Origin: Candidatus Yanofskybacteria bacterium
GTDB lineage: Bacteria; Patescibacteriota; Minisyncoccia; 2-02-FULL-40-12; IGHO2-01-FULL-4-A
Reading direction: 5' to 3'
DNA: 64,000 nt
Assembly (NCBI GenBank): GCA_016185545.1
Contig: JACPNJ010000005.1
Span: 4,549 to 68,548 of the forward strand
Shown piece by piece: positions 14,418 to 45,757 of the stretch. The position numbers and the translations under genes are program-made. The notes below the pieces were generated by a model. It was not told where the DNA came from. It saw nothing but the letters and a program-made list of their open reading frames with translations, and did not search any database. The stretch's first letter is position 1. Each line of letters opens with the position of its first letter.

Positions 14418-15419
14418 CTACTGCGTGGTCAACCCGGAGTCTTTTTCTATTGCCAGTTGTGGTAAATTTAGTTTTAGCATTCGCTCGTTGTAATCCTTAA
14501 TTATTCGCATCTCTATTGAATGCGGATGAAATTCCAGCTGTTCATCAGTAAAAATCACACGCCCGCCAGTCTGATGACTCACGGGGTTGTGCGCGATGCG
14601 CCGCGATTGATAATGGCCAAACCATTTTTCCAAAACTCTAGCAATGCCGAAGTTATCAAGTAACCATTCAGTCAACTTCACCAAGAATTGAGAAGTTGAG
14701 CTTCTCAAACGAAGCTCAACTTCTTTATTTTCAATATCCCACTCGCAAACATAATCAAGCACCCAACCATTGGCTTTCTTGAAGTCATCTATTAATTCAC
14801 TATCACTGACAAAAATTGGCACGAGATTGGCATAGGTTTGGGCATTATAAATACTTTTGTGGGGAATACTCAGCGATTTATCTGTTATGTAATGGTTGAG
14901 GCAGATTTTATTAGGCGCAATCTTGTCATTGCCACGGCGACGCACGCGCAGGAGTGATAATAAGCCGGTTATGAAAAAGCGTGTCAGCCAGATTCGGCCA
15001 TGTTTAATAATGACTAAAACGTCCAGGTCGCTTAGCTCATCCATATTTCTCATGGCTAATGACCCTGAAGCAAAAACCACTTTTACATATGGTACTAAGT
15101 GTAGCCACCAAACGGCACGCTTGGTAATCTGCCATTTTCGTTGAGCGATTTTTTCACGCTTTATTCGCAATGGCACCAGATATTCCCGGTCAAATAGAAA
15201 ATAGTAACCCTCGCGTAAGCCAATGACTCCCTCCAAAATTAATTGGTCAAGTTCTCGAGAGACAGTGGACAGTGGACAGTAGACAGTGGACAGTAGGCTA
15301 ATGCCTAGATGTTGAAAATTTATCAAGTAATTAAAAACTTCTTCCATTTTCAACGGGAAATCAAAAACATCGTAATAGGTAAGGGTTGCCAGGATATTTT
15401 TTTTAAATTCGGACACCAT
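14418..15419 (-). CDS. nucleotidyltransferase-domain protein (hypothetical)
   Basis: GSLAMRNMDELSDLDVLV Pol-beta-type NTase motif; contains two in-frame repeat insertions. Confidence 0.5.
   Translation of the reverse strand: MVSEFKKNILATLTYYDVFDFPLKMEEVFNYLINFQHLGISLLSTVYCPLSTVSRELDQLILEGVIGLREGYYFLFDREYLVPLRIKREKIAQRKWQITKRAVWWLHLVPYVKVVFASGSLAMRNMDELSDLDVLVIIKHGRIWLTRFFITGLLSLLRVRRRGNDKIAPNKICLNHYITDKSLSIPHKSIYNAQTYANLVPIFVSDSELIDDFKKANGWVLDYVCEWDIENKEVELRLRSSTSQFLVKLTEWLLDNFGIARVLEKWFGHYQSRRIAHNPVSHQTGGRVIFTDEQLEFHPHSIEMRIIKDYNERMLKLNLPQLAIEKDSGLTTQ
14691..14724. repeat. In-frame palindromic element agaagttgagcttctcaaacgaagctcaacttct
   Basis: Near-perfect 14-bp arms; same family as the elements in murC and trpS; encodes EVELRLRSSTS. 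Confidence 0.8.
15261..15295. repeat. Heptamer tandem array (gacagtg/gacagta)x5 inside the NTase coding sequence
   Basis: Five head-to-tail 7-mers encoding STVYCPLSTV. Confidence 0.9.
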
Positions 15420-29547: not shown

Positions 29548-29631
29548 GCTCGGGTGGTGAAATTGGCAGACACGTTAGCTTCAGGAGCTAATGGGAGCAA
29601 TCCCGTGGGAGTTCAAATCTCCCCCCGAGCA
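29548..29631 (+). tRNA. tRNA-Leu (anticodon CAG), type II with long variable arm
   Basis: Acceptor GCTCGGG/CCCGAGC, anticodon arm TTAGC-ttCAGga-GCTAA, variable-arm hairpin GGGAgcaaTCCC, T-arm GGGAG-ttcaaat-CTCCC; CCA not encoded. Confidence 0.85.
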
Positions 29632-29980
29632 CAATTGAACGAAGTGAAATTGGGAGTGGGGAGCAACACGCCTGCGCGTGTTGCGTGGAGATGAGAACGC
29701 CGGAGCGATGTTTGACGAGCAATCGGTGAGTCAAACCGCGAGGAGGTGGCTAGACTAAATTAGCGGAAGCTAATTTAAGTCAAAGCCAAATCTCCCCCCG
29801 AGCACAATTGAACGAAGTGAAATTGGGAGTGGGGAGCAACACGCCTGCGCGTGTTGCGTGGAGATGAGAACGCCGGAGCGATGTTTGACGAGCAATCGGC
29901 GAGTCAAACCGCGAGGAGGTGGCTAGACTAAATTAGCGGAAGCTAATTTAAGTCAAAGCCAAATCTCCCCCCGAGCACAA
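29615..29980. repeat. Tandem 173-bp direct repeats (2 full copies plus a 20-bp partial) beginning inside the tRNA-Leu 3' end
   Basis: Units at 29615-29787 and 29788-29960 differ by 1 nt; the partial copy at 29961-29980 abuts the ATG of the downstream ORF. Confidence 0.85.
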
Positions 29981-32901: not shown

Positions 32902-33927
32902 ATGGCTGACAGAATTTTTTCAGGAATACGCCCGTCAGGCAAGTTGCATCTGGGTAACTATCTGGGAGCAATAAAAAACTGGATAGAATTACAAAATTCG
33001 CCGGATACTGAACGGGCAATTTTTGCTGTAGTTGATTATCACGGCATTACCACGCCGTTTGACCCCGAAACCTATCGCCAACAAACCCTGGATACAGTTT
33101 TAGATTTTCTTGCCATAGGAATTGACCCCAAAAAATCACTTCTAATTCGCCAGTCCCATATTCCAGAGCATACCGAACTTGCCTGGATTTTTAATACAAT
33201 CACGCCGGTCAGCTGGTTAGAGCGGCTACCGACTTACAAAGAAAAACTGGAAGAAAGCGGCAAAAAATATAATCATGTTGGTCTGCTTGATTATCCTGTT
33301 CTTATGGCAGCTGATATTTTGATTTATAAATCAAATCTTGTGCCAATTGGCGATGATCAAAAAGCCCACATAGACATAACCAATGAAATCGCCAAGAAAT
33401 TTAATCACATGTTCGGCGAAACCTTTGAACCGGTCAAAGCATACAAGGCCGAGGGCGAGCGTATTAAGTCACTTCAGGACTCGGCTAAAAAAATGTCCAA
33501 ATCGGGTGACGAAGGTATTGCTCTCATTGATTTTCCTGATGTAATCCGTGAAAAAATAAAAAAAGCCGTAACTGATTCTGGCCATGAAGTTATATTTGAT
33601 CCCGATAAAAAACCGGCTATTTCTAACTTAATTACAATCTATCATTTGCTAATTAAAGAGGTTCAACCTCGAGAACCCAAAGAGGTTGAACCTCTAAAAT
33701 TTGGCATCAGAGAAATTGAGAAAAAATACAGCGGCAAAACTTATATTGAATTCAAAAATGACCTCGCGGAAATTATAGTGAATTTTCTCAAGCCATTTCA
33801 GGAAAAACGCAAAGAGTTAGAACAAGATATGACTTATGTTGAGGATGTCTTGACAGAAAGTGAAGAAAAAGCTAAACTTATTGCAAGTAGTACTTTGACA
33901 GAAATCAAACAAAAAATGGGGTTATAA
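32902..33927 (+). CDS. trpS: tryptophan--tRNA ligase
   Basis: MADRIFSGIRPSGKLHLGNYLGAI (HIGH-like), KMSKS. The six-frame ORF starts at 32842, but the conserved N-terminus starts at the 32902 ATG. Confidence 0.9.
   Translation: MADRIFSGIRPSGKLHLGNYLGAIKNWIELQNSPDTERAIFAVVDYHGITTPFDPETYRQQTLDTVLDFLAIGIDPKKSLLIRQSHIPEHTELAWIFNTITPVSWLERLPTYKEKLEESGKKYNHVGLLDYPVLMAADILIYKSNLVPIGDDQKAHIDITNEIAKKFNHMFGETFEPVKAYKAEGERIKSLQDSAKKMSKSGDEGIALIDFPDVIREKIKKAVTDSGHEVIFDPDKKPAISNLITIYHLLIKEVQPREPKEVEPLKFGIREIEKKYSGKTYIEFKNDLAEIIVNFLKPFQEKRKELEQDMTYVEDVLTESEEKAKLIASSTLTEIKQKMGL
33657..33695. repeat. In-frame palindromic element agaggttcaacctcgagaacccaaagaggttgaacctct inside trpS
   Basis: Perfect 13-bp arms around a 9-nt centre; encodes KEVQPREPKEVEP; same family as the murC and NTase copies. 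Confidence 0.8.
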
Positions 33928-35406: not shown

Positions 35407-36795
35407 ATGATGAAAATACTGGAAAGACTCAGACATATTCATATGATCGGCATTAAGGGCACGGGAATGTCTGCCCTGGCTGTTAATTTTAAGCATATGA
35501 ATATCGAGGTTACCGGTTCTGATTTTGATGAAAAATTTTTTACGGACACTTTGCTTAAAAAGCAGGACATTAAAATCAAAACGCCATTTGCTGCGGCTAA
35601 CATACCAAAAAATACCCAACTGGTCATCACCTCTACCGCTTATGATAACAAAAATCAGGAAATCCAAGAAGTCAGACGCCGTAACTTGCCGCTTTTGACT
35701 TACCCGCAAGCATTGGGCCTTTTAACGCGCGAATTGTCGTCAGTTGCAATCTGCGGCAGCCATGGCAAAACCACTACATCAGGCGCTCTGGGATTCCTGC
35801 TTAGCAAAACTGTTTATAATCCGATTATAAATGTCGGCTCCATTGTGCCGCAATTGCTAAAATATAAAGCGCAAAAAACCAAATTATTGGTTTTTGAAGC
35901 TGATGAATATCAGAATAAGTTTGAGTATTTTTACCCTAAAATTGTCATACTAACCAACATTGATTACGATCACCCTGATTACTTTAAAACCTCGGCGCAT
36001 TATAAATTGACGTTTAAAAATTTTATCAAAAGAATTCCCCAAGACGGGTTATTGATTTATTGCGCCGATGATAAAAACTGCAGAGATGTCGCCCAATCGG
36101 CTCAATGTAAAAAAATAAACTACGGATTCTCTAAATATGCGGATTGTCAAATAAATATTAACCGGATAACTCCGGCTAAAATGACTTTTTCAACCCACTT
36201 AGAAGTTGAACTTCTCAAACTGAGAAGTTCAACTTCTAAGTGGCAATCTAAGCTTATCGGTAATCATAACGCCCTCAATCTTACTGCGGCGGCGCTTTGC
36301 GCCGCCGCTCTAGATGTGCCAACCAAACAAATAAAAAAAGCTATTACGAACTTCGTTGGCACCAAGCGGCGTCTGGAAATAACCCGCCGTCTACGCATCA
36401 ATGGACACCATTGCTTAGTTATTGACGATTTTGGTCATCACCCGACGGAAATTAAAGCCACAATCGCCACGCTTAAAACCGCTCATCCCGATAAAACACT
36501 TTGGACCGTTTTCCAACCGCATACTTTCAGCCGTACCGAAGCTTTATTCAATGATTTCTCCAAATGTTTCGACAAGTCGGATAAAACCATAGTCCTGGAC
36601 ATCTATGCCTCAAAGAGAGAAACTAAAGGAAAAATACATTCAAAAGACTTAGTTAAAAAAATAGGCTCGTCTGGCGTTTTTTACAAACCAAGCATTGAAT
36701 TAGCCGCCAAATTTCTTAAAACTAAAATAAAAACCCCGAGCATTATCTTAACGCTCGGAGCTAGCGAAGTCTGGCGTCTAGCTAAACTTTTATAA
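35407..36795 (+). CDS. murC: UDP-N-acetylmuramate--L-alanine ligase
   Basis: GIKGTGMSALA, ICGSHGKTTT, DEYQNKF. Confidence 0.9.
   Translation: MMKILERLRHIHMIGIKGTGMSALAVNFKHMNIEVTGSDFDEKFFTDTLLKKQDIKIKTPFAAANIPKNTQLVITSTAYDNKNQEIQEVRRRNLPLLTYPQALGLLTRELSSVAICGSHGKTTTSGALGFLLSKTVYNPIINVGSIVPQLLKYKAQKTKLLVFEADEYQNKFEYFYPKIVILTNIDYDHPDYFKTSAHYKLTFKNFIKRIPQDGLLIYCADDKNCRDVAQSAQCKKINYGFSKYADCQININRITPAKMTFSTHLEVELLKLRSSTSKWQSKLIGNHNALNLTAAALCAAALDVPTKQIKKAITNFVGTKRRLEITRRLRINGHHCLVIDDFGHHPTEIKATIATLKTAHPDKTLWTVFQPHTFSRTEALFNDFSKCFDKSDKTIVLDIYASKRETKGKIHSKDLVKKIGSSGVFYKPSIELAAKFLKTKIKTPSIILTLGASEVWRLAKLL
36201..36237. repeat. In-frame palindromic element agaagttgaacttctcaaactgagaagttcaacttct inside murC
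   Basis: Perfect 16-bp arms; encodes LEVELLKLRSSTSK. Confidence 0.85.
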
Positions 36796-37906: not shown

Positions 37907-38494
37907 TTGAAAATATCCGGGGCTATTATGAACTTTGATAACTTATCTAGTGAGGAATTAAAAAAATTACTCACCATGGGTCGAACATCCGGTAAAAGAA
38001 TGGCTTTTGAATTTTGGCTCAAGCACATAGAACTAATCGCTCCCAGGGAAACTGGCATAGGCAAAGACCAGCAGCATTACACGGCAAGATTCTTAACACG
38101 GTTTTCTCTGGTTTCAACCACACATTCAATGTTCCACTTTCCTACTTTCATGAGTTTGGCGCAAATTTATGACGAATTCGTGCAGGATATTGAAAACCAG
38201 TATTCACCGGAACCCATGGAAATAGCCGGTTACCAAACTTTACTGCTTGGCGGGTTTTATCTGAAAGCCGCAAGTAAACATTACAACATGGAAGACATAC
38301 GAAAAATGGGCGAATTATTTTTCACCCGCGGAGCAATCGGCAAAAGAAAATCCGTAATCAAAAAAATGGCTCATAATTTTAGCCGATGGCAAAATACGCT
38401 TTGTTATCTTGAATGGTATTTAAGAAATGAAAGATTAGTCATTCAAAAAGCAGAAAAACCCGACGAGCCCCTCATCAAAATCATCCCCCGCTAG
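37907..38494 (+). CDS. hypothetical protein adjacent to the DGR
   Basis: ORF only; its stop overlaps the RT stop by 4 bp (convergent). Confidence 0.35.
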   Translation: MKISGAIMNFDNLSSEELKKLLTMGRTSGKRMAFEFWLKHIELIAPRETGIGKDQQHYTARFLTRFSLVSTTHSMFHFPTFMSLAQIYDEFVQDIENQYSPEPMEIAGYQTLLLGGFYLKAASKHYNMEDIRKMGELFFTRGAIGKRKSVIKKMAHNFSRWQNTLCYLEWYLRNERLVIQKAEKPDEPLIKIIPR

Positions 38495-39501
38495 GGGGAT
38501 TTATATTTTAAAATTTCGGCTTTTAGTTCGTTGGAATTTCCGTGGCTCAAAAGGCCTAGATACGATTCTATTGCCGCAATGTCAGGATTTGATTTAAGTT
38601 TTTTTAACATTCTTCTCTTTGTTGTTGTTCTCAATATTCTGTGGTCTGGAAAATTCACCCACCCCAGAAAATCAACACCCGAATTAATGGTTTTTATGAA
38701 AATTTTACCGGGATGTAATTCTAGTTTAAGATTTTCGGATAAAAAAATCTGAATAGGGTTGATTATACCTTTAAGCCAGGCTTTGTAGGGTGAAATTATT
38801 ACAAAGTCGTCTGAATATCTGACATAGTATTTAGCCTTGAGTTTGTGCTTAACAAACTGGTCAAACTTGTTCATATAGATATTTACGAAAAGCTGTGATG
38901 TTAAGTTACCAAGCGGCAAGCCAACGCCTATTTTCTTGGACGAGAAACTTTTAATGATTTGGTTAAGAAGCCACAAAATATCCTTGTCCGGTATGTTCTC
39001 AACCAAAATTTTTTTCAGTACTTCATGGTCAATATTTTTAAAGAATTTCTTGATATCACACTTTAATATCCAACAAGTGCGAGTATTGTTTTTATTGGCT
39101 TTGTGGGCAAAACTCCTGAAACGGTTTATTGCTTTATGAGTTCCTTTGCCGACTCTGCACGAGAATGAATCGGGAATAAACACTCGGTCAAGGAACGGAC
39201 AAAGTTGCCTACAGACGGCATGGTGAATCAAACGGTCCCTTACTGGCGATTTGTGTATTTGCCTTGGTTTGGGGTCATTGATACGAAAAGATTGATATTT
39301 GCCGTGCTTATAAGTTTTGCCCATCAATTCATGGTGAAGTTCGATAATATTGTCCATCAAATTCATACTGAATTTTTGGACATCTTTCTTTTTGCGCTTT
39401 CCTTTCAAAAATTCTTGCCAAGAATGAAGCAGATTGTCTATACTTACAACATCGTAAAAACAAACACAAAAACCACCTTTATGCCCCCCCCCCAACAACA
39501 A
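38491..39501 (-). CDS. diversity-generating retroelement reverse transcriptase
   Basis: N-terminal IDNLLHSWQEFLKGKRKKKDV, SFSCRVGKGTHKAINR, DGR-specific GLPLGNLTSQLFVNIYMN, YVRYSDDFVI (YxDD). The start is ambiguous: TTG in the given frame, or an ATG if the G-tract is 9 long. Confidence 0.85.
   Translation of the reverse strand: MLLGGGHKGGFCVCFYDVVSIDNLLHSWQEFLKGKRKKKDVQKFSMNLMDNIIELHHELMGKTYKHGKYQSFRINDPKPRQIHKSPVRDRLIHHAVCRQLCPFLDRVFIPDSFSCRVGKGTHKAINRFRSFAHKANKNNTRTCWILKCDIKKFFKNIDHEVLKKILVENIPDKDILWLLNQIIKSFSSKKIGVGLPLGNLTSQLFVNIYMNKFDQFVKHKLKAKYYVRYSDDFVIISPYKAWLKGIINPIQIFLSENLKLELHPGKIFIKTINSGVDFLGWVNFPDHRILRTTTKRRMLKKLKSNPDIAAIESYLGLLSHGNSNELKAEILKYKSP
39484..39493. repeat. C10 (+ strand) / G10 homopolymer at the overlapping 5' ends of RT and avd
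   Basis: Read directly from the sequence. A 9-nt tract would give avd an ATG start at 39481 and RT an ATG start at 39517. Confidence 0.9.
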
Positions 39502-39502
39502 T

Positions 39503-39850
39503 TTGTCGATTATTCATGGTTTTATTGAATTATACAAAGTCTGGCAAAAAATATTTCCCCACTTTCCGACCACCTCCAGACACACGCTCGGATACAGAAT
39601 AGATAATCTTCTCGTGGAAATAGCTGAATTATTGTTTCTGGCGCAATTTGCAACCGGCAATCTTAAGTTATCTCTGGTTGAAAAAACATCACAGAAACTA
39701 GATACGATAAAATTCCTGTTAAGGTTGGCTTGGGAAGTTGAATCTATGGAAGAAAAGAAATATATAATTTTGTCTGAATATCTGCAAAACATTGGGAAAC
39801 AACTTGGCGGTTGGATAAAATATATAAGAAAAGAAAACTCTCCGCGTTGA
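39503..39850 (+). CDS. avd: DGR accessory variability determinant (Avd), four-helix-bundle type
   Basis: C-terminal GKQLGGWIKYIRKEN resembles bAvd ..GRILGSWIARVNRK; IKFLLRLAWEVE resembles bAvd LRFWLRFLA; 115 aa. It lies on the strand opposite to RT, TR and the target gene. Confidence 0.7.
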   Translation: MSIIHGFIELYKVWQKIFPHFPTTSRHTLGYRIDNLLVEIAELLFLAQFATGNLKLSLVEKTSQKLDTIKFLLRLAWEVESMEEKKYIILSEYLQNIGKQLGGWIKYIRKENSPR

Positions 39851-39866
39851 GCAGAGAGAAACAGAG

Positions 39867-40007
39867 ATAGTTTCGAGGCAGAACGAACACGAAGCGATAG
39901 TCAGAATCAAAGACGTTGTCGGGATTGCCGTAATACGCGTTCAACCAAGGTTCGCCATCGTTACGATTCACATCGAACACGTTCAGGTTGCCGTCGGAGT
40001 CAGTAAT
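39867..40007 (-). repeat. DGR template repeat (TR), template strand minus
   Basis: Aligns to 40261-40401 at an offset of 394 bp. All 16-17 mismatches are T on the + strand, which is A on the TR coding strand; there are no other mismatches in 133 bp. Confidence 0.85.
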
Positions 40008-40197
40008 GTATGGCATACCGTCTATACCACCACCCCTTGAGTTTTCTCAGGGTTGAATCTAATTTGATATCTAAATCATACCCTAGTACACCACACCAAG
40101 TATGTCTGTTTTTTTTTGAGGCCGCTCAAAGCCTTCTAATTTTGACCGTGAGCATGTCGCCGTATCTATAATATAACTTATTTCCGAAATAAAAAAG

Positions 40198-40230
40198 GGT
40201 CAGTCAATGATAAAAATATTGACCGACCCA
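40198..40230 (-). terminator. hairpin plus U-run downstream of the VR/target gene
   Basis: Minus strand: gggtcggtcaat..attgactgaccc followed by ttttttatttcgg. Confidence 0.5.
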
Positions 40231-40260
40231 GAAACCAAGCAACAAGAATCTGAGAGATCC

Positions 40261-40401
40261 TTACTTGCGAGGCAGAACGAACACGAAGCGATAGACAGAA
40301 ACAAAGACGCTGTCGGGACAGCCGCAAAACGCGCCCAACCAAGGTTCGCCATCGAAACGATTCACAACGAACACGCGCAGGCTGCCGTCGGAGTCAGTAA
40401 G
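40261..40401 (-). repeat. DGR variable repeat (VR) at the 3' end of the target gene
   Basis: See the TR entry. The TR-encoded peptide has Asn (AAY) where the VR peptide has S/R/F/G/C/K, and TR Asp/Tyr codons also vary. Confidence 0.85.
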
Positions 40402-40914
40402 TGGCTCCATGGCAACTACGAGACACTCTCCATCGGGCTGATCCTTGTACTGATCGCGCAGTGCCGGACCAACTTCGTTTGGACAGAGTTGACCGCCGAC
40501 CTCAACTATCCTGGCACAGATGTCATCATACCGGGTACTCTTCTTGAAACCGAGTTCAGCAACCGACATGACACACAAATCCACTTCAATCTCTGCCTGC
40601 GAGATGGAGATTTTGTGGAGAATCTGCTGTGCCCAATCACCGATTCGGGTAGTACCTCCACGCTTCAGGGCACTCGCGTAAGCCTTCGGGGTCTTGTGAA
40701 GGCCCAGTCTGATGGTCCCCCAAACCTTCAGCACTGGCAAAAGCCCAAGAAACTTCTGGAAGACATCTCTGACAGGCAAAGTATTTGACTTGATTGCCCG
40801 AGCCAGGTCTGATAGATACCCGCTGTGCAGTGTGTTCATCTCCTCACCGGAGAGCTTCTGCTGATCCAGCAGATTAAGTGTCTGCTGGGCATGACCAAAA
40901 GTTGCATTGCTCAT
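40261..40914 (-). CDS. DGR target protein (217 aa) with C-terminal variable region
   Basis: AGGAGG RBS; GC content higher than its surroundings; C-terminus ..DGEPWLGAFCGCPDSVFVSVYRFVFVLPRK is VR-encoded; no signal peptide. Confidence 0.8.
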   Translation of the reverse strand: MSNATFGHAQQTLNLLDQQKLSGEEMNTLHSGYLSDLARAIKSNTLPVRDVFQKFLGLLPVLKVWGTIRLGLHKTPKAYASALKRGGTTRIGDWAQQILHKISISQAEIEVDLCVMSVAELGFKKSTRYDDICARIVEVGGQLCPNEVGPALRDQYKDQPDGECLVVAMEPLTDSDGSLRVFVVNRFDGEPWLGAFCGCPDSVFVSVYRFVFVLPRK

Positions 40915-41118: not shown

Positions 41119-41973
41119 TTAAATTTTTCCCACCGATCCAAAGAGCTCCAGATATTTTTTAATCATTCTCTTCATCTCTTCATAAGAGGACTTGAGGTAT
41201 TTGTAGGGCGTGGTTTCTTTGGGTTCTTTTTCAAGTTCTTCATGCAATGTATCATGATAAGCCACGCGGAGCTCGGTGTTAATGTGGACATTGGCGATAC
41301 CGTTTTGTATCGCCATTTTTATTTCTTCAGCCGGTAAGCCCGAAGCACCATGCAGCACAAGCGGCACTACAGGTATGGCTTGAACTATTTTTTTTAGATG
41401 CCCAATGTCTAAATGCTCTTCCTGATTAGTAACGATTCCGTGGATATTGCCGAAAGCTACGGCAAGCCGGTCAACACCAGTGCGCGTGACAAAATCGCGC
41501 GCCTGCTCCGGTTGAGTATAATCCGCCGGACTTATTTCTATTTTCTCCTGAACTTCCGAACTGCCACGCAAATATCCCAATTCTCCCTCAACCTCTAAGT
41601 TAAAGGATTGGGCGTAATCAACAACTTTTTTGGTTAGAACTATGTTTTCTTCGTATGAATGTTTTGATGCATCTATAAGTACTGAATCATAACCGGCATT
41701 AACGACGGCTTTGGTTGTTTCCCAACTTTTATGATGGTCGGCATTCAGGAAAACCGCGTGGCCATTTTTCTGATATGATTTAACCAAAGCCACCGCCTGT
41801 TCCCTGCCGACAAAATCCGCTTCGCTTTCCGAGGTCCCGACCATAATCGGCGATTTCAGCTCCATCGCCGCCTCAACAAACGCCTTGAGCTGGTCTGCCG
41901 TAGAAAAATTAAAATGCCCCAGCGCCCATTTGTCCGCCACCGCTTCATTAAAATACTGTTTTAAGGTTTTCAT
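41119..41973 (-). CDS. fba: class II fructose/tagatose-bisphosphate aldolase
   Basis: VLHGASG, NADHHKS, GELGYL metal-ligand pattern. Confidence 0.85.
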   Translation of the reverse strand: MKTLKQYFNEAVADKWALGHFNFSTADQLKAFVEAAMELKSPIMVGTSESEADFVGREQAVALVKSYQKNGHAVFLNADHHKSWETTKAVVNAGYDSVLIDASKHSYEENIVLTKKVVDYAQSFNLEVEGELGYLRGSSEVQEKIEISPADYTQPEQARDFVTRTGVDRLAVAFGNIHGIVTNQEEHLDIGHLKKIVQAIPVVPLVLHGASGLPAEEIKMAIQNGIANVHINTELRVAYHDTLHEELEKEPKETTPYKYLKSSYEEMKRMIKKYLELFGSVGKI

Positions 41974-41983
41974 AAATTCAGAT

Positions 41984-42186
41984 TGACATCTGATTTTCTT
42001 ACAACATCATGTCTTCCTGTAAATCTTCCTCGTTGAGCTATGGATTCCTTAAAATATGCGGTTATCCATTCCCCCTCCGCCTACTGGCTACGGGGCCCGC
42101 ATATTTCTTAAGGAATCATATACGCTCAACTCGTTGATTTACTAGTCGGCAGATGAATGACGAAAATCAGATATCAATCTTATTTT
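41984..42186. mobile_element. MITE-like ~200-bp element (left copy) with 19-bp terminal inverted repeats
   Basis: Left end agattgacatctgattttc versus RC of right end agattgatatctgattttc (18/19); internal long palindrome; inverted homologue at 44515-44700. Confidence 0.5.
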
Positions 42187-42370
42187 ATTAGCCGTGAACT
42201 ACAAGCGAGTCATAATACATTTTGGGACTTTTTGGGGCAGGCCCCAGCATGGTTTTGTCATAGGCCTTGCGCCTTGACAAATGGGGCTGCTCCAACAAGA
42301 TGAGCCGAACTCGCTGGGCTCGGCGAAGTTTCCAAAAGGTATTATGACGAGCTGTTAAACGAATGGCGAT

Positions 42371-43630
42371 TTACAATTTGATTAATCCATCTATTATATT
42401 CTCTTCTACCAACTCCTCAATTTTATCACGCCCCAGATATTCAATAAAAATCTTATTCCAAAGCGCCTCTTGCTGGTGATAAAGATATTTAATTTCGCCT
42501 TTTTTGACTAAAGACATGACCAGATCTATCAAGTCAAAGCTTACCAATTCATCGTTTGTCGGACCGCTTATGCCATCATGGAAAAAATCGCCGACAAAAT
42601 CCAATCCTTGCCAAAAACCGAACGTCCTGCCCTCCACGCCAAGCAATGTGGCAATTTTACCCAAGTCGCCTTCGGCCTTATACCAGTGTTCCGCCTCCGG
42701 ATTAAAATGCGGTTCCATCAGCCTAAAATCATCCGGGTCGTCCTTGGCCAAATATCTTTGCACGATTCGCAAACTGTTTTCATCCGGCAATGGCGCTTCG
42801 TTTACATCCCCACGCAAAAGCGATTTTAATTTAACAGTAAAGTTCTTTTCGTTGGAAAATTTCCTGAATAACTTAGAATAAAACGGCACCTCGTTGAGAT
42901 AGTGAAGAATTAATGTAAATAATCGTAGCGTTTCGCCCGGCGTGTCAATCTTAAGCGGAATTATAAAAATCACGCCGAATTCTTTCAAATGGCTGACATT
43001 GTGATATTTTTTTTCTAAAAATTTCTCGGCGACATCAAGCCATTGCGGTTCAAGTATTTTCAACACAACCCCTCGCTCCTCAAAGTCGTCAGCCGTTAAA
43101 TCATCGTAGGCCTTATCAAAAAATTCATGCATCCATTTTTGGTCTTGTGCGAACCGAAGCGAACTGAAGACCGATTCAAAGCCCTGTTTTTCAACTAATT
43201 CGGAAGCAGTTTGATATTCAAAATGTTTCAGAAGATTTTGCGGCGGAAATTCTTCAAGCATTTGAACGGCTTTATCTTTTTTTATAAAAAAACCCTCTGC
43301 TGGCTGATTGAGTTTAAGCGCTATATCGCAAAGCTGTCCGCAAACTGATGACATTTTAGAAAGATCGGGTTTGCCCAAAAAATTATAAAGATGCTCATCC
43401 ATATGCTCAATGCGCTTAGCAAGAATGTTATAAACATCCTTGGCATGGCATATATCAACTGACAGTCCCAGTTCTTCCAGCGTTCTCCCGATTAAAATCC
43501 TATTTTCCTCGGCTACGCGTTCAATAACGCCGGATTTGCCGGTCAGTTTATCCATTTTTTTCTCCAAACCCAAAAGCACCTCAGGTTTGGTGCGCAAGAT
43601 ACGGGCAAGTTTTGTATGAGCTTCAGACAT
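42371..43630 (-). CDS. hypothetical protein (419 aa)
   Basis: ORF only; lies between the inverted MITE-like copies. Confidence 0.4.
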   Translation of the reverse strand: MSEAHTKLARILRTKPEVLLGLEKKMDKLTGKSGVIERVAEENRILIGRTLEELGLSVDICHAKDVYNILAKRIEHMDEHLYNFLGKPDLSKMSSVCGQLCDIALKLNQPAEGFFIKKDKAVQMLEEFPPQNLLKHFEYQTASELVEKQGFESVFSSLRFAQDQKWMHEFFDKAYDDLTADDFEERGVVLKILEPQWLDVAEKFLEKKYHNVSHLKEFGVIFIIPLKIDTPGETLRLFTLILHYLNEVPFYSKLFRKFSNEKNFTVKLKSLLRGDVNEAPLPDENSLRIVQRYLAKDDPDDFRLMEPHFNPEAEHWYKAEGDLGKIATLLGVEGRTFGFWQGLDFVGDFFHDGISGPTNDELVSFDLIDLVMSLVKKGEIKYLYHQQEALWNKIFIEYLGRDKIEELVEENIIDGLIKL

Positions 43631-43671
43631 AAATTTGGTTGACTAAATTTTGGGTTTTGCTAGGGTTACGA

Positions 43672-43880
43672 TGCGGTGGGAGTGGCTCAGCGCAAGACCT
43701 AATCTCACCAGTTAGAGTCTTCGGGGTGCAAATCCCCGCACTTCCACCGCCTTAAGAGATATCAACAAGTGAAACTTTGACATTAAATTACTATTTTGCT
43801 AGACTTTTAGTAACTGGTGAGATTAGAATTTTGTACTGAGTTAAGGTTCGCCAACTCCCGCCTCGGCGGGTTTTTGGTTT
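43672..43880 (+). ncRNA. candidate structured sRNA ending in a rho-independent terminator
   Basis: -35 TTGACT at 43639; closed 5' domain gcggtgg..ccaccgc; long-range pairing of cctaatctcaccagttag with taactggtgagattag; terminator cccgcctcggcggg followed by tttttggtttt. Confidence 0.35.
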
Positions 43881-43931
43881 TGTTATAAATATAGCAAAAT
43901 AAGGGGTTTTTAACAATTTTGCAATAAACAC

Positions 43932-43961
43932 TTGACAATGCCTAGGCGATTTTGCTATACT
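43932..43961 (+). promoter_or_regulatory. near-consensus sigma70 promoter (TTGACA-18-TATACT) for the GC-rich ncRNA
   Basis: Hexamers read directly from the sequence. Confidence 0.55.
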
Positions 43962-43967
43962 TAAGAC

Positions 43968-44502
43968 AGGCTGGAGTGTGGGTGAAAGGTGCTGTTACCT
44001 TGACACACCTGACGCTTTCGGAGGCTGGCTGCGTTTCGCTCATGTTTCCTAAGACAGGCCGGAATTGTTGGCTAATCCGACCCCACACTCTCAACCCAGC
44101 TCTTTATACCAGAATCACGAACCCCGCTCCACACTCCGCCTTTATTGCGGAACTCAAGTAAGTCATTTGGAGCTAGTCCTGACAAGTTCAGGGCAAAAAG
44201 GTTCGCATTAAGTTTCGATTTTGCTGGTTGTGTGCCTTGAGGTTCCCTCACCCCATGGAATCGTGAACTGGAAAATTCACGAAGAGACACACACGATTGG
44301 CCGCCTAACCAGCATTTTGGCGGCTTACGGCACTCTGCCGTAGTTTACCCCACGTTGGCCAAGCTAGCGACAGGGGAATACCGCCCAGTCCTGCCATGAG
44401 GGTGGCTAGTGGTTGTTCCAGCAACCATGACAAGGACTCGAACCTACTAGGGGCAAAGTAGGCGTGCCGGATGCTATCACGATAGGCCGGCTTTTTTATT
44501 TT
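43968..44502 (+). ncRNA. candidate ~530-nt GC-rich structured ncRNA of unknown class
   Basis: GC well above flanking DNA; no credible ORF; internal complementary segments (ggagtgtgg / ccacactcc); ends in a hairpin plus ttttttattttt. Confidence 0.45.
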
Positions 44503-44514
44503 TAATTGGACATA

Positions 44515-44700
44515 GCAAGCCCCTTAGTTTTTCGTCATTCGTCTGCCGACTAACAAATTGCCGAGTTGAGCGTATATTGTTCCGCTGAAATATGCGGGTC
44601 GCGAAGCAGGAATGGATAACCGCATATTTCTAGGAACAATAGCTCAACGAATGCAATTTGTAGGAAGGCATGACGTTGTAAGAAAAATTAAGGGGCGAGC
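44515..44700. mobile_element. MITE-like element (right copy, inverted and diverged)
   Basis: Its reverse complement aligns along the whole length of 41984-42186. Confidence 0.45.
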
Positions 44701-44764
44701 GATGTTTTTGAAAAAACTTACTACTAAACTTATATACATTTGCACCGATGTGCTCAGTATTTCG

Positions 44765-45757
44765 TCACCTTCGTTCCTTAACCTCAACTAACGGCCATGT
44801 GCCCCAGTCACCTTTTTTAAGTATCCCCTCCTTACTCCCCACCTTCGTTACCACCGACGAGGAATTCGCCGTGGCAAACTGCATCGCTTTCTTAATGTCT
44901 CCGCTCCTCATATATTCTGCTACAAATCCTGAATTATAGGCATCTCCTGCTCCAGTCCGTTCAATGATCGGCGAGTCCGGCACCCCGGCAGAATAAAAAA
45001 CATCTTTGGCAAAAACTTTTGAGCCATTGTGTCCATCGGTCAATATAACCATGCCGCAACAGGTCAGTGATAACTTTTTTAATGTTTCCTCAACTTCTTC
45101 GGGTTTCGTACCGACCAACTGCGCGCCTTCTTCTTTATTCACCGCGAAAATATCAATATGCTTCAGGAGCGGCTCTAGTTTTTCAAAACCAAGTTCTAAT
45201 TCTTTGCCTCCGGGATTACAGGCAATTTTAATATTATTTTTTACAGCATGATTAACCAGCGCTTCAAATAAATCGTAATGCCCGCCAAGAGAATCAATAT
45301 AAAACCATTTAGCCTTTAATTTGCTAAAAGGTATATTTTTTACATCAAAATGCTGGCCCTCGCCCTTGTAGCTTAAAATTGTCCTCTCAGCATTAGGATT
45401 CATTAAAATCACGGAATAAGCAGTGCTGTCGTCACCATGAACCTGAAATAATGGTTCTATTTTTTCTTTTTTAAGTTCTTCGATTATCTCTTTGCCGGTC
45501 ATATCGTTACCAATAACCCCGACACAGGCAGCTTTAAATCCTTGCCGCCCAAACGTAACCGCTGAATTTGTTCCCCCGCCACCAGTAGTAAAAACAATTT
45601 CTTTTATACTAAGCTTGGAACCAAGCGAAAAACATTGTTCAACGCCAGTCGGCGAATCGGCATGTTTGCGCAATTCAACACCCTCCATTTTGAGAAAAAC
45701 GTCTCTAGTCGCCGAACCGATTGTAATAATGTCATACATAGAAAATTCAAAACTCAA
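44765..45757 (-). CDS. PfkB-family carbohydrate kinase (ribokinase-like)
   Basis: ERTGAGDAYNSGF DTxGAGD motif; GG dipeptide near the N-terminus. Confidence 0.8.
   Translation of the reverse strand: MSFEFSMYDIITIGSATRDVFLKMEGVELRKHADSPTGVEQCFSLGSKLSIKEIVFTTGGGGTNSAVTFGRQGFKAACVGVIGNDMTGKEIIEELKKEKIEPLFQVHGDDSTAYSVILMNPNAERTILSYKGEGQHFDVKNIPFSKLKAKWFYIDSLGGHYDLFEALVNHAVKNNIKIACNPGGKELELGFEKLEPLLKHIDIFAVNKEEGAQLVGTKPEEVEETLKKLSLTCCGMVILTDGHNGSKVFAKDVFYSAGVPDSPIIERTGAGDAYNSGFVAEYMRSGDIKKAMQFATANSSSVVTKVGSKEGILKKGDWGTWPLVEVKERR

What the first reader, a model, noticed from the sequence alone, without database searches (positions are those of the whole stretch)
41984..44700. Two inverted ~190-bp MITE-like elements flank a 2.3-kb segment containing a hypothetical gene and two ncRNA candidates
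Element L (41984-42186) has 19-bp terminal inverted repeats (18/19 match) and a long internal palindrome. Element R (44515-44700) is its diverged reverse complement. They bracket the 42371-43630 ORF, a terminator-ended sRNA candidate and a 530-nt GC-rich ncRNA candidate. This is a composite transposon-like or invertible-segment-like arrangement, sitting directly next to the DGR target and fba.
Basis: seen in the sequence. Interest (0 to 1): 0.6.

Follow-up and report, generated by a model that had tools for sequence, protein, structure and literature searches.

The report
Dispersed hairpin repeats, not a transposon
The two inverted ~200-bp elements are real, but they are two separately inserted copies of a hairpin-forming repeat scattered through the genomes of these tiny groundwater bacteria (Candidatus Yanofskybacteria), and the DNA between them is an ordinary conserved gene plus an unclassified RNA gene, not a mobile or invertible cassette.

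Summary
L (41972-42188) and R (44507-44709) are inverted, diverged copies of one ~200-nt hairpin (blastn E 7e-31; fold z -9 and -10.5).

The composite-transposon or invertible-segment reading does not hold.
- The element is a dispersed family. There are 7 copies in 3 genomes and about 48 more in metagenomes.
- L and R belong to different subfamilies, with only 71% core identity. R is 98% identical to a copy in unrelated flanks. L is an old insertion shared at the same fba-upstream site with two relatives, one of which provably lacks R.
- The bracketed ORF is an ancestral member of a conserved rpe-pfkB-ORF-fba operon.
- Four independent assemblies are colinear with the window.

The family has strong pair covariation. 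One strand folds better in 47 of 48 copies. Placement is orientation-specific: one end abuts the stop codon of a convergent gene in 21 of 25 cases. I read it as a new MITE/REP-like intergenic hairpin repeat of the Candidate Phyla Radiation (CPR); how it spreads is unknown.

The ~520-nt RNA is a real, conserved gene with its own promoter and terminator, and it matches no Rfam family. The small-RNA region is a window-specific block holding a tRNA-like RNA and a short RNA antisense to it.

The parts
41972..42188 (-). Element L. A ~215-nt hairpin repeat of the long-apex subfamily. The better-folding ('pattern') strand is the minus strand, co-directional with ORF419 and fba. Its 3' base lies 6 nt before the fba start codon.
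   Evidence: Orthologous copies sit at the same site in L001/L009 and L031.
44507..44709 (+). Element R. A ~200-nt hairpin repeat of the short-apex subfamily. The pattern strand is the plus strand. It starts 25 nt after the ncRNA terminator and ends 58 nt before the pfkB stop codon.
   Evidence: It is 98.1% identical over a 159-bp core to L032, which sits in unrelated flanks. It is absent from the closest relative L001.
42204..42353 (.). A 150-bp GC-rich hairpin element from a second small repeat family. Its ends, AGCGAGTC...GACGAGCT, resemble the outer stems of the L/R family.
   Evidence: (I5)
42371..43630 (-). ORF419. A conserved hypothetical protein of Ca. Yanofskybacteria/Paceibacteria and an ancestral member of the rpe-pfkB-ORF419-fba operon. 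It is not cargo.
43676..43752 (+). tRNA-like RNA: a 9-bp acceptor-like stem, a long anticodon-like arm and a T-arm (CGGGG UGCAAAU CCCCG). A promoter-like TTGACT-N16-TAGGGT lies just upstream (read from the sequence).
   Evidence: (mascRNA model, 20 bits, below threshold). ARAGORN does not call it.
43811..43876 (+). Small RNA unit. Its first 16 nt are perfectly complementary to the anticodon-like arm of the tRNA-like RNA (43699-43714). It ends in an intrinsic terminator.
   Evidence: (I9). The block 43631-43930 has no counterpart in any relative.
43966..44492 (+). Unclassified structured ncRNA gene. It has a promoter (TTGACA-N18-TATACT, 43932-43961), a long-range P1 stem, a conserved ~110-nt core (44097-44210), a variable 3' extension and an intrinsic terminator.
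   Evidence: No Rfam match.
41119..41973 (-). fba (class II fructose-bisphosphate aldolase), the left flank.
44765..45757 (-). pfkB-family sugar kinase, the right flank.

Best explanation
L and R are two independently acquired members of a dispersed, non-coding, ~200-bp hairpin repeat family of Candidatus Yanofskybacteria and related Paceibacteria (Patescibacteria, the Candidate Phyla Radiation). The family is closest in kind to bacterial MITEs and intergenic hairpin repeats such as Correia, ERIC and REP elements.

Shown:
- The family has many copies in several genomes and metagenomes.
- It has a modular anatomy: outer stem (T)AG(A)GCGAnC + ~7 variable bp, then a ~160-nt core TTTTTC...GAAAAA, then the complementary outer stem.
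- Its base pairs covary.
- One strand folds markedly better than the other.
- Copies sit in the narrow gaps at the 3' ends of transcription units in a fixed orientation. The left end usually lies some 10-20 nt after the T-tract of a co-directional terminator. The right end usually lies 0-1 nt from the stop codon of a convergent gene.
- L is an old insertion upstream of fba, kept in two relatives with compensatory changes. R is absent from the closest relative and nearly identical to a copy elsewhere.
- The DNA between L and R is not a unit. ORF419 is an ancestral gene of the rpe-pfkB-ORF419-fba operon. The antisense ncRNA gene entered the pfkB/ORF419 junction in a subclade that mostly lacks both L and R.

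Inferred:
- The element spreads as a non-autonomous mobile DNA with strand- or orientation-specific insertion.
- It is transcribed within 3'-UTR or intercistronic RNA, where the hairpin is kept by selection, plausibly as an RNA-end stabilising, processing or termination element.
- L has become the leader of fba.
- The two copies bracket the segment only because both gaps are the kind of site the family occupies.
For: Dispersed family:
- A 22-base pattern from the apex finds 7 true copies in 3 species-representative MAGs (3, 2 and 2 copies) and 48 metagenome stretches, several contigs holding two.
- Different subfamilies: core identity between L and R is 71%. L is closest to L031 (88%) and L009 (86%); R is closest to L032. 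The R/L032 core is 98.1% identical over 159 bp with no flank similarity.

Timing:
- L001 (ORF419 92% identical) has L at the same site but no R.
- L002-L004 and L061-L072 have neither.

Synteny:
- pfkB-ORF419-fba is conserved in all 12 relatives examined. pfkB and ORF419 are only 2-107 bp apart in L063 and L066-L072.

Orientation of the segment:
- Four contigs from four sequencing runs are 100% identical to the window and colinear with it. One spans pfkB-R-ncRNA-ORF419.

Structure:
- 47 pairs, 95.6% of cells paired against 89.3% in shuffles and 36-49% in slid controls.
- 15 pairs show changes on both sides; 109 such cells against 31 expected; 0 of 500 shuffles reach these values.

Strand:
- The pattern strand is more stable in 47 of 48 copies, by 9.9 kcal/mol on average.

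Placement:
- The downstream convergent gene's stop codon lies within 14 nt of the right end in 21 of 25 cases. No upstream co-directional gene ends within 22 nt of the left end, 0 of 28.

Non-coding:
- The short and long apex variants differ by 13 nt, so no frame is conserved.

Not a catalogued family or phage element:
- Not in Rfam and not in IMG/VR.

Analogy:
- Transcribed MITEs are known to be cut by RNase III (Correia) or to change mRNA decay at 3' ends (ERIC), and a terminator-like repeat (SPRITE) is known (PMC10969869).
Against: - No autonomous partner and no transposase were found. No pair of such ends spaced 40 to 3,000 bp apart, other than the short elements themselves, occurs in the ~0.5 Mb held.
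- No clear direct target-site duplication. TA is frequent at both ends but cannot be told apart from an extension of the palindrome.
- No empty site could be aligned.
- Copies with nearly identical cores (R and L032; L006, L007 and L008) have quite different yet self-complementary outer stems. Simple cut-or-copy transposition of the whole hairpin does not predict this.
- Excess conservation of the apex is partly an artefact of the search pattern.
- Many of the 21 stop-codon cases share gene contexts; there are about 15 distinct ones.
- No expression data exist, so transcription and any RNA function are inferred.
- The G-U excess rests on few columns: 77 against 28 cells, but 16 against 13 pairs.
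Confidence: 0.8

Rival explanations
1. Composite transposon or invertible segment. L and R act together as the ends of a 2.7-kb unit that moves as a block, or flips by recombination between the inverted copies.
For: Two inverted related elements bracket a gene and RNA genes. The ncRNA gene is also followed by a family copy in a different gene context in L038 and L041. Logan contigs break inside L and R, as expected at repeats.
Against: ORF419 is at this position, in this orientation, in all 12 relatives examined, mostly without L or R. L001 has L but not R. L and R are only 71-76% identical and the longest shared run is 21 nt. R is closer to about 25 copies elsewhere than to L. No recombinase or transposase domain is found in ORF419. 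Only one arrangement is seen in four assemblies.
Confidence: 0.03
2. The family is not mobile DNA at all. It is a multi-copy functional structured RNA, or cis-acting RNA element, kept by purifying selection. On this view the near-identical cores reflect function rather than recent movement, and the free-to-vary closing stem is ordinary covariation.
For: There is strong covariation and strand asymmetry. The asymmetric apical bulge GGAAUGGAUAA is invariant across subfamilies. The orthologous L copies are about as conserved as the neighbouring coding DNA (83-87% for the L and fba-start region against 79-88% for ORF419), while other intergenic DNA is unalignable. Orientation relative to genes is fixed. 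Cores are 98-99% identical with unrelated outer stems.
Against: Copies occur in many unrelated gene contexts and are present or absent between close relatives. There are nested insertions (L011, L038, L041) and truncated copies. No promoter is evident in front of most copies. Apex conservation is inflated by how the copies were found. This reading is compatible with, rather than exclusive of, a mobile origin.
Confidence: 0.25
3. REP-like single-strand DNA element. The hairpin forms in single-stranded DNA and is moved or maintained by an HUH-type enzyme (RAYT or IS200/IS605-like). This would explain the strand specificity and the lack of a direct target duplication.
For: The hairpin is strand-specific and insertion is orientation-specific. 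A conserved nTAG, often GTAG, lies just 5' of the palindrome, as in REPs. No direct target duplication is seen. G-T pairs also stabilise DNA hairpins (established knowledge).
Against: At ~200 bp the element is five to ten times the size of REPs. No Y1-transposase gene was looked for or seen. The whole element, not a subterminal part, is palindromic.
Confidence: 0.15
4. Local inverted duplication. R, or L, was copied from its neighbour during a rearrangement of this locus.
For: The two copies are close, 2.3 kb apart, and inverted.
Against: R is 98% identical to a copy on an unrelated contig and 71% identical to L. The apex variants differ, long in L and short in R.
Confidence: 0.02

Closest known systems
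Correia / NEMIS elements of Neisseria (a MITE)
   Same: Both are ~100-200 bp and non-coding, with inverted ends. There are tens of copies per genome, mostly intergenic and next to genes. They are co-transcribed as long hairpins that affect mRNA processing (PMC10969869). TA is frequent at both ends here.
   Different: Here the whole element is one covarying hairpin with a strongly favoured strand and a fixed orientation relative to the neighbouring genes. The outer stems differ between copies with identical cores. A TA duplication is not demonstrated. There is no sequence similarity. The host is a CPR bacterium.
ERIC/IRU and REP/BIME repeats of enterobacteria; SPRITE of pneumococcus
   Same: All are imperfect palindromes in transcribed intergenic or 3' regions, and they influence mRNA decay or termination (PMC10969869). 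The nTAG in front of the palindrome here recalls the GTAG of REPs. Many copies here are followed by a T-run.
   Different: Here the size is ~200 bp, against 20-40 bp for REP and ~127 bp for ERIC. No RAYT is known for it. The precise abutment to stop codons is not a described property of those families, to my knowledge.
Composite transposons and invertible (phase-variable) segments
   Same: Two related elements in inverted orientation flank a few kilobases.
   Different: The flanked DNA is ancestral and fixed in orientation. The two elements are of different age and subfamily. There is no transposase or invertase.
Rfam RNA families, for the ~520-nt RNA and the tRNA-like RNA
   Same: The RNA has its own promoter and terminator, a conserved core and covarying stems, like the large 'ornate' bacterial ncRNAs. 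In L003 and L004 the 5' domain is tRNA-like (tRNA model, 24 bits, below the threshold of 29).
   Different: No family reaches its threshold, and none matches the ncRNA even at E of 10 or less. ARAGORN finds no tmRNA.

Membership tests
MITE (miniature inverted-repeat transposable element) | Small (about 50-500 bp) and non-coding | tested here: met
   Copies are 187-280 bp. The apex variants differ by 13 nt, so no reading frame is conserved.
MITE (miniature inverted-repeat transposable element) | Terminal inverted repeats | tested here: met
   Outer stems of 12-18 bp are found in every copy, with a semi-conserved (T)AG(A)GCGAnC motif.
MITE (miniature inverted-repeat transposable element) | Many dispersed copies, polymorphic between related genomes | tested here: met
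   About 55 copies in 3 MAGs and roughly 45 metagenome contigs. R is absent from L001, and L is absent from L002-L004 and L061-L072.
MITE (miniature inverted-repeat transposable element) | Direct target-site duplication flanking each copy | tested here: inconclusive
   TA is common at both ends but cannot be distinguished from the palindrome. No longer direct repeats were found and no empty site could be aligned.
MITE (miniature inverted-repeat transposable element) | A related autonomous insertion sequence with the same ends | tested here: not met
   No pair of AGCGAnC-type ends spaced 40 to 3,000 bp apart, other than the short elements themselves, is present in the window or the ~0.5 Mb of loci held. 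Whole genomes could not be searched.
REP/BIME with RAYT | A 20-40-nt imperfect palindrome preceded by GTAG, with a RAYT gene in the genome | tested here: not met
   The element is ~200 nt. The nTAG motif is present. Presence of a RAYT was not tested.
Composite transposon | The block between the two ends is absent or elsewhere in relatives, and moves as a unit | tested here: not met
   ORF419 is syntenic in all 12 relatives examined. The two ends are of different age.
Site-specific invertible segment | An invertase or recombinase nearby, and both orientations present in the population | tested here: not met
   ORF419 has no recombinase domain. Four assemblies show one orientation. Raw reads were not available.
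Any Rfam 15 family (for L/R, the small RNA region and the ~520-nt RNA) | A covariance-model score at or above the gathering threshold | tested here: not met
   Only two ordinary tRNAs pass in the window. Nothing passes in 41900-44800 or in the related loci.

The most novel reading that the evidence does not exclude
The hairpin family is not passive junk. It would be a previously unrecognised, strand-specific structured RNA (or single-strand DNA) module of CPR bacteria, with an almost invariant 160-nt core and a freely re-programmable closing stem, placed with single-nucleotide precision behind stop codons and behind terminators, and serving as a dedicated 3'-end or intercistronic control element. 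In the same reading, the neighbouring 270-590-nt RNA, with its exchangeable (sometimes tRNA-like) 5' domain, would be a new class of large bacterial ncRNA.
Probability: 0.2. Interest if true: 0.65.

Novelty: new member of a known kind. Interest (0 to 1): 0.35.

Why it matters
As a composite transposon or phase-variable switch this would have been notable in a tiny, streamlined CPR genome, but that reading fails.

What remains is modest but useful.
- I found no description of this small-repeat family, or of any MITE-like repeat in Patescibacteria, in four full-text literature searches.
- The family has unusually clean covariation, strand bias and stop-codon-adjacent placement. That makes it a good test case for whether such repeats are selected RNA elements or merely tolerated parasites.
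- The family also explains assembly breaks in these metagenome-assembled genomes (MAGs).
- The locus carries a conserved, strongly promoted, unclassified ncRNA family and a confident-fold protein of unknown function embedded in a sugar-phosphate operon. Both are worth cataloguing.

Tried and rejected
- **Insertion into pre-existing palindromes.** I considered that the complementary but variable outer stems mean insertion into the loop of an existing terminator or REP-like hairpin. A scan for 'empty' GCGAnC...GnTCGC hairpins found none among ~0.49 Mb, and the end motif is shared, so the stems belong to the element.
- **Autonomous partner.** I looked for pairs of the same ends spaced up to 3 kb apart. 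Only the short elements themselves turned up.
- **Target-site duplications from folded boundaries.** The minimum-energy folds run on into the flanks and gave nothing usable.
- **Strand inference from G-U against A-C counts.** This was inconclusive per pair. Comparing fold energies of the two strands was decisive.
- **Conserved peptide.** I considered a small peptide encoded in the apex (ATGGATAAC...). The frame is not conserved between apex variants.
- **Known RNA classes for the ~520-nt RNA.** I considered RNase P RNA, tmRNA (including the permuted form), SRP RNA, 6S RNA, a group I intron and GOLLD/ROOL. There is no Rfam hit even at E of 10 or less and no ARAGORN call. Resemblances to RNase P conserved regions seen by eye are superficial.
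- **RNA-protein pairing of ORF419 with the ncRNA.** Rejected. Most relatives have ORF419 without the RNA gene, and the RNA gene also occurs in another gene context.
- **Phage origin.** Neither the hairpin nor the ncRNA core occurs in IMG/VR.
- **Literature.** Searches found nothing on such repeats or RNAs in Patescibacteria.
Full report

Yes. L and R are joined by three inverted blocks of 36-55 nt at 81-86% complementarity. blastn gives 75.7% identity over 173 nt, E 7e-31. L has terminal inverted repeats at 41972-41998/42162-42188 (27 nt, 89%). Each element folds into a single long hairpin far more stable than shuffled controls: L at -89.5 kcal/mol, z -9.1, and R at -84.3 kcal/mol, z -10.6. 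A profile HMM of the family finds only these two copies in the 64-kb window. The content between them is as described:
- an ORF on the minus strand (42371-43630);
- a promoter-to-terminator small RNA unit;
- a GC-rich RNA unit of about 520 nt with a near-consensus promoter at 43932-43961 and a hairpin plus T-run at 44465-44492.

**2. What organism and what neighbourhood?**

The ORF's product is 100% identical to a hypothetical protein of a Candidatus Yanofskybacteria MAG. It has more than 2,600 homologues at 60-92% identity in Yanofskybacteria and Paceibacteria. The flanking genes are fba on one side and pfkB, rpe and a 2-hydroxyacid dehydrogenase on the other, all on the minus strand.

I fetched twelve distinct related loci through the ORF's homologues. 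In every one the order pfkB-ORF419-fba and the orientation are the same. In L063 and L066-L072, pfkB and ORF419 are only 2-107 bp apart, and in many loci ORF419 overlaps or abuts fba. The ancestral state is therefore a tight operon, and ORF419 is not cargo.

Only a subclade has 750-1,130 bp inserted between pfkB and ORF419: the window, L001, L002, L003/L004, L061/L062 and L065. That insert carries an RNA gene transcribed antisense to the operon.

**3. L and R are members of a dispersed family.**

I used a 22-base pattern from the apex of the hairpin.
- In the species-representative genome collection it finds seven true copies: three on three contigs of one Yanofskybacteria MAG, two in the MAG that holds L001, and two in a third MAG. 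It also gives one chance hit in a Clostridia contig.
- In metagenomes it finds 48 stretches, mostly Hainich groundwater and freshwater sediment. Several contigs hold two copies.
- In IMG/VR it finds none.

L and R fall in different subfamilies. L has the long apex and is closest to L031 (88%) and L009 (86%). Both are the orthologous copies directly upstream of fba in relatives. R has the short apex and is closest to L032. The R/L032 core is 98.1% identical over 159 bp, while the rest of that 2.4-kb contig has no similarity to the window. Core identity between L and R is 71%.

The closest relative, L001 (ORF419 92% identical), has L but no R. At the R position it and L002 carry a different GC-rich hairpin.

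**4. No sign of inversion or block mobility.**

Four contigs assembled independently from four sequencing runs are 100% identical to the window and colinear with it. One runs from inside pfkB through R and the RNA genes into ORF419 and up to the apex of L. The other contigs break inside R or at the apex of L, as expected at repeats and palindromes.

The longest identical run between L and R is 21 nt (alignment A1), which I take to be short for homologous recombination (my own assessment, not tested here). ORF419 has no recombinase or transposase domain, and indeed no Pfam, NCBIfam, PADLOC or PDB sequence hit. Raw reads were not available to me, so rare inversion in the population is not formally excluded.

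**5. Anatomy of the family.**

Thirty-seven copies align over 234 columns. The consensus is one hairpin of 47 pairs. Of all pair cells, 95.6% are standard pairs, against 89.3% after shuffling the partners and 36-49% when the partners are slid by one to three columns. Fifteen pairs change on both sides, giving 109 such cells against 31 expected. None of 500 shuffles reaches these values.

Two arm variants replace each other in a compensatory way: UCUGCC...GGCA with UCUCAACC...GGUUGA. The apex holds an invariant asymmetric bulge, GGAAUGGAUAA. Its invariance is partly due to the search pattern.

From outside to inside the unit reads:
- (T)AG(A)GCGAnC;
- about seven variable, pyrimidine-rich bases usually ending in TGA or TAA;
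- the core, TTTTTC ... GAAAAA;
- the complement of the variable bases;
- GnTCGC(n), often followed by CTA.

Copies whose cores are 98-99% identical can have entirely different outer stems that still pair. Examples are R against L032, and L006, L007 and L008 from one MAG. I could not explain this. Gene conversion of the cores, modular recombination, or an unusual insertion chemistry are all possible. A scan for empty outer-stem hairpins found none.

A second small element in the window (42204-42353) has the same kind of ends, AGCGAGTC...GACGAGCT, around a different interior, and it has relatives in L003 and L026. This fits several non-autonomous families sharing one type of end.

**6. Strand and placement.**

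Folded as RNA, one strand is more stable than its complement in 47 of 48 copies, by 9.9 kcal/mol on average. This is the strand carrying the search pattern: minus for L, plus for R. The hairpin therefore matters in single-stranded form on a particular strand, whether as RNA or as single-stranded DNA.

I oriented all copies on that strand and recorded the nearest genes.
- A convergent downstream gene ends within 14 nt of the right end in 21 of 25 cases, about 15 distinct gene contexts. Usually the reverse-complement stop codon comes 0-1 nt after ...GCG(n).
- No co-directional upstream gene ends closer than 22 nt, 0 of 28 cases.
- Many left flanks show that gene's own terminator T-tract some 10-20 nt before the element.
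- Many right ends are followed by a T-run.

The orientation relative to neighbouring genes is thus far from random. The window's R is typical in orientation: it sits 25 nt after the ncRNA terminator and faces the pfkB stop 58 nt away. L, together with its orthologues L009 and L031, is atypical. It lies inside the operon in the sense orientation, and its last paired base is 6 nt before the fba start codon.

The L orthologues differ by compensatory changes, GAUUCC/GGAAUC against GUUAC/GUAAC. The stretches that contain them (L plus the start of fba) are 83-87% identical between the window and these relatives, against 79-88% for ORF419, whereas neighbouring spacer DNA cannot be aligned. L therefore appears to be maintained, plausibly as the fba leader. 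Genes in this lineage lack Shine-Dalgarno sequences, so I draw no conclusion about sequestration of a ribosome-binding site.

**7. How it most likely works.**

Shown:
- a multi-copy, non-coding hairpin repeat whose presence varies between relatives;
- pair covariation;
- a preferred strand;
- fixed placement at the 3' ends of transcription units.

Inferred:
- It is a non-autonomous mobile element that inserts in an orientation-specific way into the short gaps at gene ends.
- It is transcribed as part of 3'-UTR or intercistronic RNA.
- Its hairpin is kept by selection because it affects RNA 3'-end stability, processing or termination.

This is the behaviour described for Correia, ERIC and SPRITE repeats (PMC10969869). 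Arguing against a simple MITE are the missing autonomous partner, the missing demonstrable target duplication and the outer-stem puzzle. Two alternatives remain open: a REP-like single-strand DNA mechanism, or a purely functional RNA family.

**8. The RNA genes.**

*The ~520-nt RNA (43966-44492, plus strand).* It belongs to a family found in the same position in L001, L002, L003/L004, L061/L062 and L065. It is also found in a different gene context in L038 and L041/L048. All members share:
- the promoter cacTTGACA...tgcTATACT;
- a long-range 5' stem whose sequence differs in every member but always pairs (read);
- a core of about 110 nt, containing AUCACGAACC, a small hairpin, CAAGUAAGU, a variable hairpin and AAAGGUUCG, with some compensatory changes;
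- a 3' extension of 40-270 nt;
- an intrinsic terminator.

The domain enclosed by the 5' stem is variable. In L003/L004 it is tRNA-like (tRNA model, 24 bits, below threshold). No Rfam family matches even at E of 10 or less. ARAGORN finds no tmRNA, and the core is absent from IMG/VR. With eight sequences the structure is only moderately supported.

In L038 and L041 a hairpin-family copy again lies downstream of this RNA gene. In the five loci syntenic with the window it does not. I therefore read the adjacency as use of the same kind of site rather than as linkage.

*The small-RNA region (43631-43930).* This block is unique to the window. It holds a tRNA-like RNA (43676-43752; z -3.1). It also holds a terminator-ended small RNA whose first 16 nt are perfectly antisense to the tRNA-like RNA's anticodon-like arm. 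Its function is unknown.

**9. ORF419.**

**10. Verdict.**

The elements are real and MITE-like. The composite or invertible reading is not supported. The family is a new member of a known kind of bacterial repeat, with some unusually sharp features that remain unexplained. The larger RNA candidate is a genuine, conserved, unclassified gene. Overall interest is moderate to low.

Noticed in passing
window 38491-40914: The DGR is complete in outline. It has a reverse transcriptase (38491-39501, minus strand, Pfam RVT_1) and a 139-nt repeat pair at 39868-40006 and 40262-40400 (88% identical). The second copy lies at the 3' end of ORF 40261-40914 (minus strand), as expected for a template and variable repeat. 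I found no link to L or R.
   Followed up: partly
window 42204-42353: A 150-bp GC-rich hairpin sits between ORF419 and L. Its ends, AGCGAGTC...GACGAGCT, resemble the outer stems of the L/R family. Related pieces occur in L003 (157-241, at the position R occupies in the window) and in L026 (946-1018). This is a second small repeat family.
   Followed up: partly
window 43631-43930: A 300-bp block absent from all relatives carries a tRNA-like RNA (43676-43752). About 60 nt downstream it carries a small terminator-ended RNA whose 5' 16 nt are perfectly complementary to the tRNA-like RNA's anticodon-like arm. Three promoters of the same design (TTGACn-N16-18-tgcTAnnnT) drive these two RNAs and the large ncRNA, and a fourth points toward ORF419.
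   Followed up: partly
window 14686-14729, 33651-33701, 36195-36243; also L014, L017, L038, L041 next to hairpin copies: Short perfect palindromes of the type GAAGTTGAACTTC / GAGGTTCAACCTC / CAAGGTTCAACCTTG recur. ARAGORN does not call them as tRNA. They may be a REP-like or terminator-like motif of this lineage.
   Followed up: no
window 29663-29950: There is a tandem duplication of about 173 bp immediately after tRNA-Leu (29548-29632). Two internal palindromes are each present twice (I14 and I15).
   Followed up: no
[not shown]
   Followed up: partly
window gene starts (43630, 45757, 46466, 47455, 41973) and relatives: No Shine-Dalgarno sequence precedes these genes. The start context is A/T-rich, for example AAATT-ATG.
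   Followed up: no
L041 9290-9520; L011 1520-1560; L038 and L041 inside the hairpin's left arm: Another ~200-nt hairpin, with ends GCAACCCCCTATC/GATAGGGGGTCGC, lies upstream of the ncRNA gene in L041. Several hairpin copies carry a nested ~35-40-nt mini-hairpin (CCCCAGTAGCAG...) inserted at the same point of the left arm.
   Followed up: no
L002 6285-6340: Upstream of fba in L002 there is a ~35-nt stretch (GGGATGAATGACGAAAAACAAAGGACTTGCC) resembling one arm plus outer stem of the hairpin family. It may be a remnant of a deleted L copy. It falls below the HMM threshold.
   Followed up: no
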